Shown here in pieces: positions 3,000-48,500 of a DNA stretch of 64,000 nt. A model generated the notes under the pieces. The model searched no databases, had not been told where the DNA came from, and saw nothing but the letters and a program-made list of their open reading frames with translations. The stretch covers positions 1-64,000 of the forward strand of contig CAZALK010000021.1 in NCBI GenBank assembly GCA_964486045.1, read 5' to 3'. Position 1 is the first letter of the stretch, and every line of letters begins with the position of its first letter. The position numbers and the translations under genes were made by a program. This DNA comes from an uncultured archaeon. Its GTDB lineage: Archaea > Asgardarchaeota > Lokiarchaeia > Sigyniarchaeales > SOKP01.

Positions 3000-3127
3000 T
3001 ATTTTAGAAGCAATTAGATAAATACATGAACCTATAAATATATAATTTACATTTTGATATAGAAAAGGGATTTTAAAAAGTATAATAAAGCTTTTGTAAT
3101 TCTAATCTAATAACCTCATATTACATA

Positions 3128-3910
3128 ATGAATTGCTTATCAAATGAGTTCACCATCGGAAATTACGAAAATATATATGAAGATGCCAAAAAAGATCCAA
3201 ATATTGTAGGATTTTTCTTAGGTGGTTCTAGAGGAAAAGACTTCCAAACCAGGTTTTCAGATTACGATACGTATATAATCGTTAAAGATAGTGTTGTTAA
3301 AGAGTTTAAAGAAAGATATCCCTTTCGAAAATATGAAGGTATAGATCTAATTGTATTCTCGTTTTCTGATTTTAAGAAATATGCTCCATGGGGAAGCCCT
3401 GATGCCTGGGATAGATATAGTTTCTCTCATGTGAAAACATTAATTGATAAAACTGGTAAAGTACAAGAACTAATAGATGAAATGGCAAAAGTGCCGAGAA
3501 AATACCTCTCAAAATTCATAGGTGGAGCATTAGATGGGTATATAAACTTCCTTTATCGTTCTTTAAAATGTATTCGGGATGGAAATATTGAAGCAGCCCG
3601 TTTAGAAGCAGCTTTATCCATACCGGCTTTACTTGATGTAATTTTTTCTATACATAATGGTAGATTAAGGCCCTACTATAAATATCTTAAATGGGAACTA
3701 GAGAAATTCCCTCTAACTAAAATTCCTTTGACCCCCAAAGAAATTGTTAATAATTTAATGAAAATTTTAGAGAATGCTGATTACACAACTCAACAGAAGT
3801 TCCTTAATATTACTGAGGATGCCCTTAGAAAAGAAGGATTTGGGAAAGTGTTTGAAAGTTGGGGAGACGATTTCCATTGGATGAAATTTTTTAAACCTTT
3901 AAAAGAGTAA
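3128..3910 (+). CDS. Pol-beta-type nucleotidyltransferase domain protein with helical C-terminal domain
   Basis: LGGSRGK...SDYD (GS..DxD) signature, later IDL and RPYYKYL. Confidence 0.8.
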   Translation: MNCLSNEFTIGNYENIYEDAKKDPNIVGFFLGGSRGKDFQTRFSDYDTYIIVKDSVVKEFKERYPFRKYEGIDLIVFSFSDFKKYAPWGSPDAWDRYSFSHVKTLIDKTGKVQELIDEMAKVPRKYLSKFIGGALDGYINFLYRSLKCIRDGNIEAARLEAALSIPALLDVIFSIHNGRLRPYYKYLKWELEKFPLTKIPLTPKEIVNNLMKILENADYTTQQKFLNITEDALRKEGFGKVFESWGDDFHWMKFFKPLKE

Positions 3911-3914
3911 TAAG

Positions 3915-4019
3915 CAGGCCCGGGGGGAATTGTTCAGGAAATGCGAAGTACATTTCATATTGAACCCCCGATCTTCAGCTTAGGAGGCTGCCGCCCTATC
4001 CGGACTAGGCCACGGGCCT
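3915..4019 (-). tRNA. tRNA-Arg (anticodon CCT) with a 30-nt intron in the T-loop; CCA not encoded
   Basis: Acceptor stem AGGCCCG/CGGGCCT, anticodon arm CAGC-CTCCTAA-GCTG, T-stem GGGGG/CCCCC. Removing 3930-3959 gives T-loop TTCAATT and a 75-nt tRNA. Confidence 0.95.
3930..3959 (-). other. BHB tRNA intron at non-canonical position 58/59
   Basis: Central helix GTTC/GAAC, two AAT bulges cut after the second base, internal hairpin GAAATG/CATTTC. Confidence 0.9.
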
Positions 4020-16950: not shown

Positions 16951-17177
16951 CAGGAAAATTTCTGTCCATATTATGTTGTTACCATATACCATACATAATT
17001 TAATTTTTATTTCGTTTAACACTAAATGGTTTTTTTAATCTTATCTAAACTTTTTTTGAAATTTTATTTTTGTTTGAGTTTTTCTTTTCGAAATTAAAAA
17101 TTTTTTATACTAATAATTGTATATTAGAATTATTCAAAACTAAAATTTTAATTTTGTAAAGTGAAGGAGAAATAAAA

Positions 17178-17468
17178 ATGAGCGATACAGATGAGGATCG
17201 TTTCTGTCCCTATTGCGGAGTGGCATTAAAGTTTTCAGAGTTTCTGGAAGTTGTGTAAAATCACCCGTATTGGCAGCATATTCAAACAAAACACCCAGAT
17301 AAGTATTCTCAGAAGGAAACATGGGTACAGTTATATCAAGATTATTCTTCCCTTGGAATGGACATATCTACGTCAATATTAGTAATCTCTGAATTGTTTA
17401 ATGCCACGCCAGATGAAATAAAGTCGTTTTTAGAAAATGCTAATGTAAATTTTGAAGTTAATGATTGA
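17178..17468 (+). CDS. Small C2H2-like zinc-finger protein (86 aa if spliced; exons 17178-17228 and 17259-17468), interrupted by a stop-containing 30-nt insert
   Basis: SD-like GAAGGAG at 17163-17169, ATG 17178. Spliced product MSDTDEDRFCPYCGVALNHPYWQHIQTKHPDKYSQKETWVQLYQDYSSLGMDISTSILVISELFNATPDEIKSFLENANVNFEVND. In-frame TAA at 17256-17258. Confidence 0.75.
17229..17258 (+). other. Candidate BHB/BHL-type intron in mRNA
   Basis: Central helix GCAT(17223-26)/GTGT(17253-56), bulges TA^A and AA^A, 10-bp intron stem 17230-39/17243-52, exon-exon helix 17214-22/17262-69. Confidence 0.65.
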
Positions 17469-17537
17469 ATTTAGAATTAATGCATATATAACTCTTATAC
17501 TAGAGAATGAAACAACAAACATCTAAATAAGCATTTT

Positions 17538-17624
17538 ACTTCATTAATGGTTATTTCAGAATTATTTTATGCAACTAAAGAAGAAATAAAGTTGTTTTTA
17601 GTAAACGCCAAAATTATTAAGTAA
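17538..17624 (+). pseudogene. Diverged duplicate of the 3' end of the upstream zinc-finger gene
   Basis: Translates TSLMVISELFYATKEEIKLFLVNAKIIK*, versus TSILVISELFNATPDEIKSFLENA in the upstream gene; stops upstream in frame. Confidence 0.8.
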
Positions 17625-45543: not shown

Positions 45544-48500
45544 TCATTTTCTGCTTATAATCGGTAAAGAAAAGTAGAATGTAGATCCTTCATTTCTACC
45601 TTTAGATTCCACCCATATTTTTCCACCATGAAGTTCAATCATTTTTTTTGAGATATAGAGACCTAAGCCAGAGCCCTCAGAAATCACGTCTAGACCTTTA
45701 CCGTATCGTTCCACTTTCCCAAATTTTTTGAAAATTTTCGATTTTTCATGCTCCGTTAAACCAATTCCATCATCTGTTATTGAAATTATATACTGATTAT
45801 CTCTAATTTCTGAATTAATTTTGATTTTCCCATTTGAGGGAGTATACTTTATAGAATTGCCTAAGAGATTTATGATTACTTCATAGATTTTTTCCTTTTC
45901 AAATTGCGTAACCATGTTCTCTTGAATTTCTAAAATTAACTCATGTTTTCTAGTTTCTATTAACCCTTGTAAATCTTTAACACAAAATCTTAACAAAAAT
46001 GATAGATCTTCTTCTGATTTACTTAATTTAATATCTCCAGATTCTAATTTTGAAGTTTCTAAAAGGTCCTTTATTAATGATTCAAGTCGGGAACATCCCT
46101 GCTTAATTTCATGTAATACTGAGATTGTGTAGAAGTTAAGTTCATCATAATGTTGACTCAAAAGTAAATCTGCGTAACCTTTTATTGAAACTAATGGTGT
46201 TTTTAATTCATGTGATGTTCTAGTAAGTAGGTCAGATTTTAATTTGCTGACTTCTTTTAACTCTTCCTCCACTTGTTTTTTAGAAGTTACATCTATTAAG
46301 GTTGATAGAGTTGCACTCTTTCCAAGATATATAATGGGTTTTGTAAAAATTGAGACCCATTTAACTTTCCCTAATTTTGAGTTTATTCTTAATTCTAATT
46401 GACCTACAGAATCATAAAAACCGGGTTGTCTCCCTTTAATTTTTTCAAGCATAAATGGTAGATCCTCTTTATATATGATTTTAGTTAAATTTTCTGCTCC
46501 CTGGTTGTAAATTTCTTCTATAGAATATTCAATAATTTCTGAAACGGCTTTATTTGCGAATTTTACATATCCGTCTTGTTGGATAATTACACCAATCGAA
46601 GATTGTTCAGCTATAGTTCTAAATTGTTCTTCTGATTCCTTCAATTTTTGTTCTGTTTTTTTTCGGGTTGTTATATCTAAAAGAGAAGTTATAACTTTCG
46701 ACCAAGTTGTTTCGAAACCTGGAATAATCAAAGTCCTCATATAAATGTATATTGTATCTCCTGTGAGAGTTTTTGTAACAACTTCAGATTCGTAGGTTGT
46801 ATTTCCCCCTATCAAAGATAATAATTCTAGTTTATTGGTCGTGATTGCTTCTGGATTTGTAGAATGAAATGAGTCTTTTTCAAATTGATTTTTCAAATCA
46901 AAAATTTCTTTCTTGCTTCTGGATTTGTATAACTCAACAATTTTATTATTAACATCTATTAATTTGATCTTAGAGAGACATTTAATAACTACTTCAGGAT
47001 TTTCATCAAAATATTTCTCAAAAGATTTTATTCCTGAAGCTTTTAATTTATCTACATAATTTTTCATATCAGAATAATCTTGTTCTAATAAGGCAATAGG
47101 AGAATTTTCAAATAATTCTCGATATCTTTTTTCTGAATCTTTCAGTTTTTCCTCAATTTCTTTCTCTTCGGTAATATCTTTAGCGATACAGAGAATTCCT
47201 TCATTTATAGGGTATACACTCACTTCGTAATAAGCCCCACGACCATCTGGATGCGTAAAAAACTCAGTTACACGTTCAGCATTCCTATTGTTTATCACTT
47301 TTTCATATGTCTTGAAAAAAAGGGTTTTTTCAATACCAGGAAAAACATCGAAGATTTTTTGACCTAATAAATTCTCAACAGGCATATGGACAATTTTCTC
47401 AGCGTTATTATTTACAATTATATATTCCCAATCTCTATTTAAGGCATAAACAGCATCTGTAATAGATTCGAGTAGCATTCTATATTGATTTGAAAGGTTC
47501 CTATATTTTTCTTCTGAGTCTTTTAATTCCTGTTCAGCTTTTATACGATCAGTTATATCAACAGCTAATGCGATTATTCCTTTTACAATTCCATTTTCAT
47601 CAATATAGGGGATTTTACTAGTATTAGCCCACTTTCTACCGCTTGATGTTTCCCAAGGTTCAATGATATTAAGTTTCGGTTTTTTATTTTTTATAACTTC
47701 TAAATCATCTTCCCAATATGTTTGAGCCTCATCATAAGGATAAATTTCAGAAGCACTCTTACCTTCAATTTCTTCTTTTTTTAAGTTATGACCATCAGCC
47801 ATAAATTTATTAATCCGTAAAAAATTATTTTCAGTGTCTTTATAAGCAATAACCGCTGGTATGTGATCAAAAATCACTTCTAATTCATTAGCGAGATGTC
47901 TATACAGTATTTCTGATTCTATTAGTTTTTGCTGAGCTTTCTTGCGTTTGGTGATGTCAGTATTTACTGAAACAAGAACTTTGCCATACTCGGGATGATC
48001 AAAGACTGAAACATTAACATAGCTCCAAAATAACGTTCCGTTTTTCTTAATATTTTTAATTTCCCCATGCCATTCTCCTGTTTCTGATAATATTCCCATA
48101 ATAGTTTTTTTCGTTTCCTCAGGATTTTTGTCTGTGGGTGCATTAATAATTGCGATATCTTTTCCAATCAGTTCTCCGGGATTATAACCAAACATTTCCT
48201 CTAATGCAGGATTAGCATAGACAATTATCCCATCATCGATTCGAGCAAGTTGTACACCCTCACTGACATTTGTCATGATTTCACTATGTAATCGTAATTC
48301 TTCCTCTCTTTCCTTGCGTTCTGTAACATCTTGGAAAGAATTGATATAAACTGTTTGATCTTCGGTTTTTTGTTCAATAGAAGTTATTAAACCCCAGAAA
48401 ACTTTGCCATCCTTCCGCGTAAATTTGGCTTCAAAATCTTTTACTAGCCCTTGTTCATGTAATATAATAAATCTTTCTCTATCCTTTGGATCGCTATACC

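What the first reader, a model, noticed from the sequence alone, without database searches (positions are those of the whole stretch)
17178..17468. Candidate tRNA-type (BHB) intron in a protein-coding zinc-finger gene
Seen in the sequence: an SD-preceded ORF stops after 26 codons at TAA 17256, yet the same frame continues for 69 more codons. The 30 nt at 17229-17258 (AAGTTTTCAGAGTTTCTGGAAGTTGTGTAA) fold into a 10-bp stem. The stem sits on a 3-nt bulge (TAA), a 4-bp helix GCAU/GUGU and a second A-rich bulge, and is closed by an 8-bp exon-exon helix (UGCGG-A-GUG/CACCCGUA). Established: archaeal EndA cuts after the second base of each bulge. Applying that rule joins TTA to AAT, removes the stop, keeps the frame and brings CPYC next to HIQTKH, forming a C2H2-like finger (Cx2C-x10-H-x4-H) followed by a helical C-terminus. 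The rule was checked on the 30-nt tRNA intron in this same window. mRNA introns of this type are rare in archaea; cbf5 of Crenarchaeota is the classic case. Inference: this Asgard archaeon may splice an mRNA with its tRNA-splicing machinery, possibly as an on/off switch for a small nucleic-acid-binding protein, conceptually like non-spliceosomal HAC1/XBP1 splicing. Caveats: the central helix has two G-U pairs, and the 3' bulge is 5 nt (relaxed BHL form).
Basis: partly seen in the sequence, partly recalled or inferred. Interest (0 to 1): 0.93.

Follow-up and report, generated by a model that had tools for sequence, protein, structure and literature searches.

The report
tRNA-type intron in Asgard protein gene
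A 30-base insert with a stop codon inside a small zinc-finger gene of an Asgard archaeon has the shape of the introns that archaea cut out of tRNAs, and relatives show that it must be spliced out of the mRNA; in the papers I could search this is reported only for the cbf5 gene of another archaeal phylum.

Summary
The ORF 17178-17258 stops at TAA, and the same frame stays open to 17468.

- About 76 of 80 homologous loci lack exactly these 30 nt (CPYCGVAL|NHPYW).
- Other Asgard genomes and metagenomes carry inserts of 24-53 nt at this site and at about five other sites in the same 81-codon gene. Many inserts are not multiples of three.
- One copy has four inserts.
- At the only cuts that restore the frame, every insert has a 4-bp central helix, a 3-nt 5' bulge and an intron hairpin.
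- Compensatory changes keep the helices paired.
- Genes that share an intron show dN/dS of 0.02-0.09.
- The genome has two EndA paralogs and RtcB.
- Its single-copy RNA polymerase A' gene carries the same kind of 30-nt stop-bearing insert.

The pseudogene, readthrough, bypass and assembly-artefact readings are disfavoured.

Earlier notes of this scan describe similar introns in this genome and in other Asgard genomes. The papers I searched report coding-sequence BHB introns only for crenarchaeal cbf5.

The parts
17166..17169 (+). Shine-Dalgarno-like GGAG, 8 nt upstream of the ATG
   Evidence: Sequence read
17178..17228 (+). Exon 1: 17 codons, MSDTDEDRFCPYCGVAL. It holds the CxxC zinc knuckle.
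17214..17222 (+). 5' strand of the outer exon-exon helix h (UGCGG, bulged A at 17219, GUG)
   Evidence: MFE fold; scanner (h 3 bp + 5 bp)
17223..17226 (+). 5' strand of the central 4-bp helix H (GCAU, exon). It pairs with 17253-17256.
   Evidence: H is 4/4 paired, and it covaries with L127 (GCGU/GCGU) and L081-85 (CCAU/GUGG).
17227..17229 (+). 5' bulge B1 (UA|A). The predicted cut is after 17228.
17229..17258 (+). The 30-nt BHB intron, ending in the in-frame stop TAA
   Evidence: Absent from 76 of 80 homologous loci. Top-ranked blind BHB prediction. Single copy in the genome.
17230..17252 (+). Intron hairpin h': a 10-bp stem (17230-17239 with 17243-17252, three G-U pairs) and loop GUU
17253..17256 (+). 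3' strand of the central helix H (GUGU, intron)
17257..17261 (+). 3' bulge B2 (AA|AAU). It is 5 nt, so relaxed. The predicted cut is after 17258.
17262..17269 (+). 3' strand of the outer helix h (CACCCGUA, exon 2)
17259..17468 (+). Exon 2: 69 codons plus TGA. It begins NHPYWQHIQTKH (the His ligands), followed by a helical domain.
17541..17624 (+). Orphan diverged copy of the gene's last 27 codons (SLMVISELFYATKEEIKLFLVNAKIIK*). It looks like the displaced ancestral 3' end and is not part of the intron.
   Evidence: ORF 17547-17624. (second match, 17532-17621). (a relative's contig joins 17345 to 17541).
3914..4019 (-). tRNA-Arg(CCT) with a 30-nt BHB intron (3930-3959) at T-loop position 58/59. 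It is an in-window substrate of the same splicing machinery.
   Evidence: miss the unspliced gene.

Best explanation
Window 17229-17258 is a bulge-helix-bulge (tRNA-type) intron inside the coding sequence of a small zinc-finger gene specific to this group of Asgard archaea.

Proposed mechanism. The pre-mRNA folds so that exon bases GCAU pair with intron bases GUGU, forming the central 4-bp helix. A 10-bp intron hairpin lies on one side and an exon-exon helix on the other. The archaeal splicing endonuclease cuts two nucleotides 3' of each strand of the central helix, that is, after 17228 and after 17258. This genome has two EndA paralogs, consistent with the broad-specificity (alpha-beta)2 type. 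RtcB then joins the exons (...GCA UUA|AAU CAC...). This removes the TAA and gives an 86-aa protein with a Cx2C-x10-H-x4-H finger and a helical tail.

Basis. Shown by comparison: the insert is absent from homologs at exactly this point; the geometry and compensatory changes are conserved in relatives; and selection has kept both exons intact while the intron was present. Inferred: that EndA and RtcB are the enzymes, and that removal happens in RNA. Splicing is most likely constitutive. The intron was inherited from the ancestor shared with metagenomic relatives L081-L085.
For: 1. Exact absence. 76 of 78 scored genome loci have the intronless spacing. The alignment shows CPYCGV-xL-xHPYW with no residues at the insert. 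The close relative P0001 is intronless in DNA.

2. Recurrence.
- Inserts of 24, 25, 30, 30, 30, 31, 31, 32 and 53 nt lie at the same codon boundary.
- Other inserts lie within or after the Tyr codon, after or near WQHxQ, between DYT and SMGM, and before VISELF.
- Lengths that are not multiples of three rule out any in-frame reading.

3. Geometry.
- At the frame-restoring cuts, all 16 loci in the table have a 3-nt 5' bulge.
- The central helix is paired 4/4 in 12 loci and 3/4 in 4. In nearly all loci an intron hairpin directly abuts the helix.
- The background rate of this geometry at a given cut and length in this genome is 3.1e-4.
- Scanning without protein information puts the ORF-restoring cuts first in the window and in L081, L082, L084 and L085.
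- L082 and L084 are fully canonical (3-nt bulges, 6-bp outer helix).

4. Compensatory changes.
- Central helix pair 1: G-U versus C-G.
- Central helix pair 3: A-U versus G-C.
- Site B hairpin pair 3: G-U, C-G and U-G.
- Site D hairpin pair 2: A-U versus G-C.

5. Selection. All 15 intron-bearing genes splice in silico to intact ORFs of 80-86 aa. dN/dS is 0.02-0.09 at dS 0.7-2.5 between genes that share an intron. These genes form clades in the tree.

6. One metagenomic homolog (L174) has four such introns (34, 31, 32 and 38 nt). The cut rule alone rebuilds an intact 80-aa ORF.

7. Machinery and precedent in the same genome.
- Two EndA paralogs and RtcB are present.
- A tRNA in the window has a 30-nt intron that obeys the same rule.
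- Single-copy rpoA' is interrupted inside GHFGH|IELARP by a 30-nt BHB insert ending in TAA.
- A BcrAD_BadFG gene matches its Pfam model end to end across a stop-bearing 27-nt insert.

8. The genome has no intact second copy of the gene. Two assemblies carry the insert.
Against: There is no RNA evidence, because no RNA run holding this DNA was listed.

The window's 3' bulge is 5 nt rather than 3, and the central helix has two G-U pairs. Cleavage of this particular substrate therefore rests on analogy with broad-specificity EndA enzymes.

The fold energy alone is not significant (z = -1.55).

The window's copy also has a replaced or duplicated 3' end and an atypical C-terminus (ENANVNFEVND). This copy could therefore be less constrained than its relatives.

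Only about 4% of species genomes with the gene carry any insert.
Confidence: 0.87

Rival explanations
1. The gene is a decaying pseudogene. A 30-nt insertion brought in a nonsense codon, and only a 26-aa fragment, or nothing, is made.
For: There is an in-frame TAA. The 3' end of this copy is rearranged and has an orphan tail. Most relatives lack any insert.
Against: Relatives that share the same-site intron have diverged to dS of about 1 with dN/dS of 0.06-0.09 and no other lesions. The insert boundaries coincide with BHB cut sites in all 16 tabulated loci. Helix pairs covary. An essential single-copy gene, rpoA', carries the same kind of insert in this genome. There is no second intact copy of this widely conserved gene.
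Confidence: 0.04
2. The insert is handled during translation. Either the stop codon is read through, keeping 10 extra residues, or the ribosome bypasses the hairpin as in phage T4 gene 60.
For: The window's insert is in frame and 30 nt long. It has a stop inside a stable hairpin, superficially like gene 60. Some public gene calls read such inserts through with TAG=Q.
Against: Orthologous inserts of 25, 29, 31, 32, 34, 38 and 53 nt shift the frame, so readthrough cannot be the general solution. The take-off and landing codons do not match: UUA versus UAA in the window, CUA versus UAA in L005. Ten extra residues would lie between the Cys and His ligands of a finger whose spacing never varies in 46 homologs. 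The BHB geometry and the covariation have no role in bypassing.
Confidence: 0.03
3. The insert is a small mobile DNA hairpin (MITE- or REP-like), or an assembly artefact, with no RNA-level removal.
For: It is a short, AT-rich, hairpin-forming insert with patchy distribution among species.
Against: It is single copy in the 5.18-Mb genome, with no other match longer than 14 nt. Two assemblies from two samples are identical across it, at depths 259 and 77. Half of the structure is made of exon sequence and tracks exon changes.
Confidence: 0.02
4. The intron is real, but its splicing is regulated. It would act as an on/off switch for the zinc-finger protein, analogous to HAC1/XBP1.
For: The relaxed 3' bulge and the G-U pairs could make cleavage inefficient or dependent on conditions. 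The stop yields a defined 26-aa product when the RNA is unspliced.
Against: No regulator or sensor is linked to the locus. The same kind of intron sits in housekeeping genes such as rpoA'. Sister sequences have fully canonical motifs. Most species manage without the intron.
Confidence: 0.04

Closest known systems
BHB intron in the cbf5 pre-mRNA of Crenarchaeota (Watanabe 2002; Yoshinari 2006; Yokobori 2009, PMC2738675)
   Same: It is a short intron inside a protein-coding sequence, recognised through a bulge-helix-bulge motif by the tRNA splicing endonuclease of a hetero-oligomeric (alpha-beta)2 host. It is patchily present among relatives, which implies gain and loss.
   Different: The phylum (Asgard), the gene and the intron positions differ. 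Here at least five or six positions are used in one 81-codon gene, with up to four introns in one copy (L174). The same genome carries such inserts in several unrelated genes. Splicing of cbf5 was shown experimentally; splicing here was not.
[quoted passage not shown]
   Same: The motif geometry and cut rule are the same. The typical length of about 30 nt matches the tRNA-Arg intron in this window. The presumed enzymes are the same. The pattern of repeated, lineage-specific gains is also shared.
   Different: The host RNA is an mRNA, so splicing must restore a reading frame. The exon half of the motif is under protein-coding constraint. The preprint does not mention mRNA or cbf5 and treats only tRNA genes.
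HAC1/XBP1 unconventional mRNA splicing (IRE1 cleavage, then ligation by Trl1 in yeast or RtcB in animals)
   Same: Removal of a short mRNA intron from stem-loop sites is independent of the spliceosome and based on an endonuclease plus a ligase. It changes the encoded protein.
   Different: IRE1 is a stress-activated kinase-RNase unrelated to EndA, and it recognises loop sequence motifs rather than a BHB. HAC1/XBP1 splicing is regulated, and no regulation is evident here. This is an analogy only.
Translational bypassing of phage T4 gene 60
   Same: An in-frame stop and a hairpin lie within a short non-translated gap in a coding sequence.
   Different: Bypassing needs matched take-off and landing codons and acts on the ribosome. 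Here the codons do not match, and the conserved features are those of a BHB.

Membership tests
Archaeal BHB (EndA-type) intron | A central 4-bp helix formed between exon and intron, with the intron hairpin directly abutting its 3' strand | tested here: met
   GCAU/GUGU is paired 4/4 and h' is 10 bp. The same register holds in all 16 related loci.
Archaeal BHB (EndA-type) intron | Two 3-nt bulges on opposite strands flanking the helix | tested here: inconclusive
   The 5' bulge is 3 nt (UAA). The 3' bulge is 5 nt (AAAAU) in the window, so it is a relaxed form. Sister introns L082 and L084 have both bulges at 3 nt.
Archaeal BHB (EndA-type) intron | Cutting after the second nucleotide of each bulge yields the functional mature RNA | tested here: met
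   In silico, the cuts restore the frame and the conserved sequence in the window and in 15 further loci. They do so in all four introns of L174, in rpoA' and in the window's tRNA-Arg.
Archaeal BHB (EndA-type) intron | Base pairing is maintained by compensatory substitutions | tested here: met
   Double changes occur in central-helix pairs 1, 2 and 3 at site A and in hairpin pairs at sites B and D. The set is small (8, 4 and 2 sequences).
Archaeal BHB (EndA-type) intron | The host encodes the splicing endonuclease and an RtcB-type ligase | tested here: met
   There are two PF01974 matches (C7 and C10) and one PF01139 match (C1) in the own genome.
Archaeal BHB (EndA-type) intron | Excision and exon ligation are observed in RNA (junction reads, circular intron) or in vitro | not testable with these tools
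   No RNA run holding this DNA was listed.
C2H2-type zinc finger | Two Cys and two His ligands with fixed spacing on a beta-hairpin plus helix | tested here: inconclusive
   C10, C13, H24 and H29 are invariant in 46 homologs. The AlphaFold2 model has strands at 8-9 and 16-17 and a helix at 21-28, with pLDDT about 80. No Pfam family passes its cut-off, the PDB profile hits have E of 0.5 or more, and the x10 spacing is shorter than the classical x12.

The most novel reading that the evidence does not exclude
This Asgard order (the Loki-type group that holds the gene) may run routine, genome-wide mRNA splicing with its tRNA-splicing enzymes. Introns of about 30 nt appear to invade coding sequences repeatedly. 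Five or six positions are used in one 81-codon gene, and one copy has five exons. Essential genes such as rpoA' depend on removal. That would make these close prokaryotic relatives of eukaryotes organisms with interrupted protein genes and obligatory pre-mRNA processing.
Probability: 0.7. Interest if true: 0.9.

Novelty: new member of a known kind. Interest (0 to 1): 0.8.

Why it matters
In the papers I could search, splicing of protein-coding transcripts by the tRNA endonuclease is documented in archaea only for cbf5 of Crenarchaeota.

Here a different gene in an Asgard archaeon shows the same mechanism, supported by strong comparative evidence. The same small gene has gained such introns at several positions in different lineages. 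An essential polymerase gene in the same genome carries one as well.

If RNA data confirm it, three things follow:
- Gene calling in Asgard genomes is systematically wrong at such sites. This search already met truncated calls, calls with 10 extra residues, and calls that use a wrong genetic code.
- The substrate range of Asgard EndA includes mRNAs.
- Intron gain, intron loss and the coupling of transcription to translation can be studied in the prokaryotes closest to eukaryotes.

Tried and rejected
- RNA evidence: no RNA holder was listed for this DNA. The only runs that could be laid were DNA contigs.
- ARAGORN and Rfam on the window found no tRNA at all. The tRNA-Arg had to be shown by removing its intron first. 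ARAGORN with introns allowed gave mostly spurious calls on the genome.
- Genome-wide census: I paired a vectorised BHB scan (182,886 raw motifs) with an ORF-fusion test. It showed no enrichment over decoy cut positions. Hairpins between tandem genes swamp the signal, so I give no count of mRNA introns for the genome. Individual candidates were instead checked by eye and by Pfam. One of them, the PurF-like C20 candidate, got no Pfam match.
- The simple blind scanner ranked the true cuts first in only 5 of 16 loci. It demands uninterrupted hairpins and outer helices. The geometry table at the known cuts is the fairer test.
- Function of the protein: there was no Pfam family above cut-off, no Foldseek PDB match with E of 0.001 or less, no PDB sequence match, and only unnamed Promethearchaeota clusters in the ESM Atlas.
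- Fold energy of the motif alone: z = -1.55, not significant.
- Search for further copies of the intron in the genome: none found. This argues against a repeat family, but it also gives no donor.
- First attempt to solve the four introns of L174 automatically: it failed because it required a contiguous hairpin. I solved them by hand from the folds and then verified them.
- Literature searches for BHB introns in Asgard protein genes: these found only work on tRNA introns, on EndA and on cbf5.

Full report
**1. The observation**

The window has GGAG at 17166-17169, then ATG at 17178, 26 codons and TAA at 17256-17258. The same frame stays open for 69 more codons, to TGA at 17466-17468.

- an outer helix UGCGG-(A)-GUG / CACCCGUA;
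- a central helix GCAU/GUGU;
- a 3-nt 5' bulge;
- an inner stem of 8-10 bp with loop GUU;
- a 5-nt 3' bulge, AAAAU.

The fold energy alone is unremarkable (z = -1.55). I wrote a BHB scanner that knows nothing about the protein. It ranked cuts after 17228 and after 17258 first among 178 candidates in 17101-17500.

Two contig sets from two samples (depths 259 and 77) carry the stretch unchanged, so it is not an assembly artefact. One of these sets may be the source of this genome.

**2. Homologs lack exactly these 30 nt**

A read-through translation found 78 relatives. Most are 80-83 aa, and all come from Loki-, Hod-, Thor- or Hermod-type Asgard bins. In the alignment the full-length relatives have nothing between CPYCGV-xL and xHPYW, where the window has KFSEFLEVV*.

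Of 80 genome loci, 76 have the intronless spacing of 81 nt between the CxxCG and ETW motifs. Two (L005, L055) have 111 nt, and two more are intronless with QTW in place of ETW. The close relative P0001 is intronless in DNA (...CCA CTA|AAT CAC...).

Among 400 species of the phylum, the gene occurs in 136 genomes of one order. It is interrupted in five of them. The window's genome has no second intact copy.

**3. The same gene is interrupted elsewhere, in ways only excision can mend**

The short or odd database proteins turned out to be miscalled intron-bearing genes.
- Site A is the window's codon boundary. Inserts there are 24 nt (L082), 25 (L084), 30 (window, L005, L127), 31 (L081, L085, L177), 32 (L169), 34 (L174) and 53 (L083).
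- Site B lies inside the Tyr codon of HPYW: 30 nt in L086-L090.
- Site C lies one base further on: 30 nt in L091.
- Site D follows WQHVQ: 30 nt in L055, L092 and L093.
- Site E lies between DYT and SMGM: 29 nt in L129.

One metagenomic copy (L174) has four inserts of 34, 31, 32 and 38 nt. Many of these lengths are not multiples of three, so neither stop-codon readthrough nor a tolerated 10-residue insertion can explain them.

**4. Geometry at the frame-restoring cuts**

For 16 loci I fixed the cuts by the protein alone and then read off the RNA geometry.
- In all 16, the last two exon bases and the first intron base form a 3-nt bulge.
- The four bases before that bulge pair with the four bases that precede the last two intron bases. 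Pairing is 4/4 in 12 loci and 3/4 in 4.
- In nearly all loci the intron hairpin starts right after the bulge and ends right before the helix.

L082 and L084 are fully canonical, with 3-nt bulges and a 6-bp outer helix GGUGUU/AACACC. The window's 3' bulge is 5 nt because its exon reads GUG GCA rather than GUU CCA.

In this genome, a 4/4 central helix plus at least 5 bp of hairpin at a given cut and length occurs at a rate of 3.1e-4. Run blind, the scanner's top hit restores the ORF in the window and in L081, L082, L084 and L085.

For L174, applying the cut rule to four motifs rebuilds an intact 80-aa ORF with every invariant residue. It even picks Met at a position where a naive join would give Val.

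**5. Covariation and selection**

The central helix at site A reads GCAU/GUGU (window), GCGU/GCGU (L127, same genus), GAGC/GCUU (L005), CCAU/GUGG (L081-85) and AAGU/GCUU (L169). Pairs 1, 2 and 3 each change on both sides. Hairpin pairs at sites B and D also change on both sides. The numbers are small but consistent.

All 15 intron-bearing genes give intact ORFs of 80-86 aa once spliced in silico. Between genes that share an intron, dN/dS is 0.02-0.09 at dS 0.7-2.5.

In a gene tree, the window is sister to L081 (support 97) within a group of site-A sequences. Site B (support 98) and site D (support 96) each form one clade. The introns therefore persisted through long divergence while both exons stayed under purifying selection. 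This excludes a pseudogene.

The gene is short and the tree is weakly resolved. I claim only that there are several independent gains, at five or six positions.

**6. Machinery and precedent in the same genome**

The genome is 5.18 Mb and 99% complete.
- It has two EndA paralogs. This is consistent with the (alpha-beta)2 type that Kaneta et al. (PMC5829648) assign to Asgard archaea and link to broad specificity.
- It has RtcB.
- The window holds tRNA-Arg(CCT) with a 30-nt intron at position 58/59, which obeys the same cut rule.
- Only 29 tRNA matches are found genome-wide, many of them 99-115 nt long. This fits the preprint on heavily interrupted Asgard tRNA genes.

It has one TAA inside the Pfam match. 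The blind scanner's top hit there is a 30-nt intron at C13:44101-44130 (GGAC/GUCU, 9-bp hairpin), and removing it restores GHFGH|IELARP.

A BcrAD_BadFG gene matches its Pfam model end to end (E = 7e-57) across a stop-bearing 27-nt insert. Two AIR-synthase-family genes and a LURP-one-like gene carry similar inserts. An organism whose only RNA polymerase A' gene needs this excision must perform it.

**7. What the protein is**

The spliced product has invariant C10, C13, H24 and H29 (Cx2C-x10-H-x4-H). The AlphaFold2 model has mean pLDDT 80. It shows a beta-hairpin plus helix, followed by three helices.

No Pfam family passes its cut-off, no solved structure matches, and the Atlas clusters are unnamed. 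'Small C2H2-like, probably nucleic-acid-binding protein' is therefore an inference only. The intron sits between the Cys knuckle and the His helix.

**8. Rival explanations**

- Pseudogene: excluded by section 5.
- Readthrough or bypass: excluded by the frameshifting lengths, by the unmatched take-off and landing codons, and by the fixed ligand spacing.
- Mobile DNA hairpin: the insert is single copy in the genome, and half of its structure is exon sequence.
- Regulated switch: nothing supports it, and housekeeping genes carry the same kind of intron.

**9. What is missing**

No RNA run holds this DNA, so excision in RNA is inferred, not shown.

My attempt at a genome-wide count failed, because motif plus ORF fusion was no better than decoy cuts.

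**10. Novelty**

The searched papers report BHB introns inside coding sequences only for cbf5 of Crenarchaeota. None reports them for Asgard protein genes.

Earlier notes of this scan describe similar introns in this genome and in other Asgard genomes. I verified two of those claims myself (rpoA' and tRNA-Arg).

The mechanism is a known kind. This is a new member in a new phylum and a new gene. It shows an unusual density of independent insertions.

Noticed in passing
window 17541-17624 (and 17346-17540): An orphan, diverged copy of the gene's last 27 codons lies 72 nt after the stop. It is closer to relatives' C-termini (...FLVNAKIIK) than the gene's own tail (...FLENANVNFEVND). A relative's contig joins 17345 directly to 17541. 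The current 3' end therefore looks like an inserted replacement of about 195 nt.
   Followed up: partly
window 3914-4019 (minus strand): This is tRNA-Arg(CCT) with a 30-nt BHB intron at T-loop position 58/59 (3930-3959). ARAGORN and Rfam both miss it until the intron is removed.
   Followed up: yes
own genome G000 (whole): RF00005 finds only 29 tRNA matches in a genome that is 99% complete. About a dozen of them are 99-115 nt long. Most tRNA genes are therefore probably interrupted, some beyond recognition.
   Followed up: partly
G000:C13:44101-44130 (L160): The single-copy RNA polymerase A' gene carries a 30-nt insert ending in TAA inside the conserved GHFGH|IELARP motif. Its geometry is canonical BHB (GGAC/GUCU, bulges AU|U and AA|A, 9-bp hairpin).
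   Followed up: yes
G000:C7:54809-54835; C1:759271-759300; C5:195271-195300; C18:43552-43581; C3:187694-187725: Further stop-bearing or frameshifting inserts of 27-32 nt with BHB geometry occur in five other genes. They lie in a BcrAD_BadFG ATPase gene (the Pfam match spans the insert), two AIR-synthase-family genes, a LURP-one/scramblase-like gene and a MoxR-like AAA gene. The last was judged only by eye.
   Followed up: partly
L174 (metagenome contig SDBV01014081.1), minus strand 3065-3320: A homolog of the zinc-finger gene is split by four BHB introns (34, 31, 32 and 38 nt) into exons of 48, 28, 66, 27 and about 71 nt. Spliced in silico, it gives an intact 80-aa protein.
   Followed up: yes
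public proteins P0011, P0015, P0022, P0024, P0061, P0074-P0078, P0066, P0072: Database gene calls for intron-bearing copies are wrong in systematic ways. Some are N-terminally truncated ORFs that start inside the intron. Others are full-length calls that read the intron through as 10 extra residues using TAG=Q.
   Followed up: yes
G000:C13 about 46,700-46,900 (end of rpoA'): The 3' end of the rpoA' reading frame runs into a (KKASST)n repeat and then a run of N. This looks like an assembly gap in a repeat.
   Followed up: no
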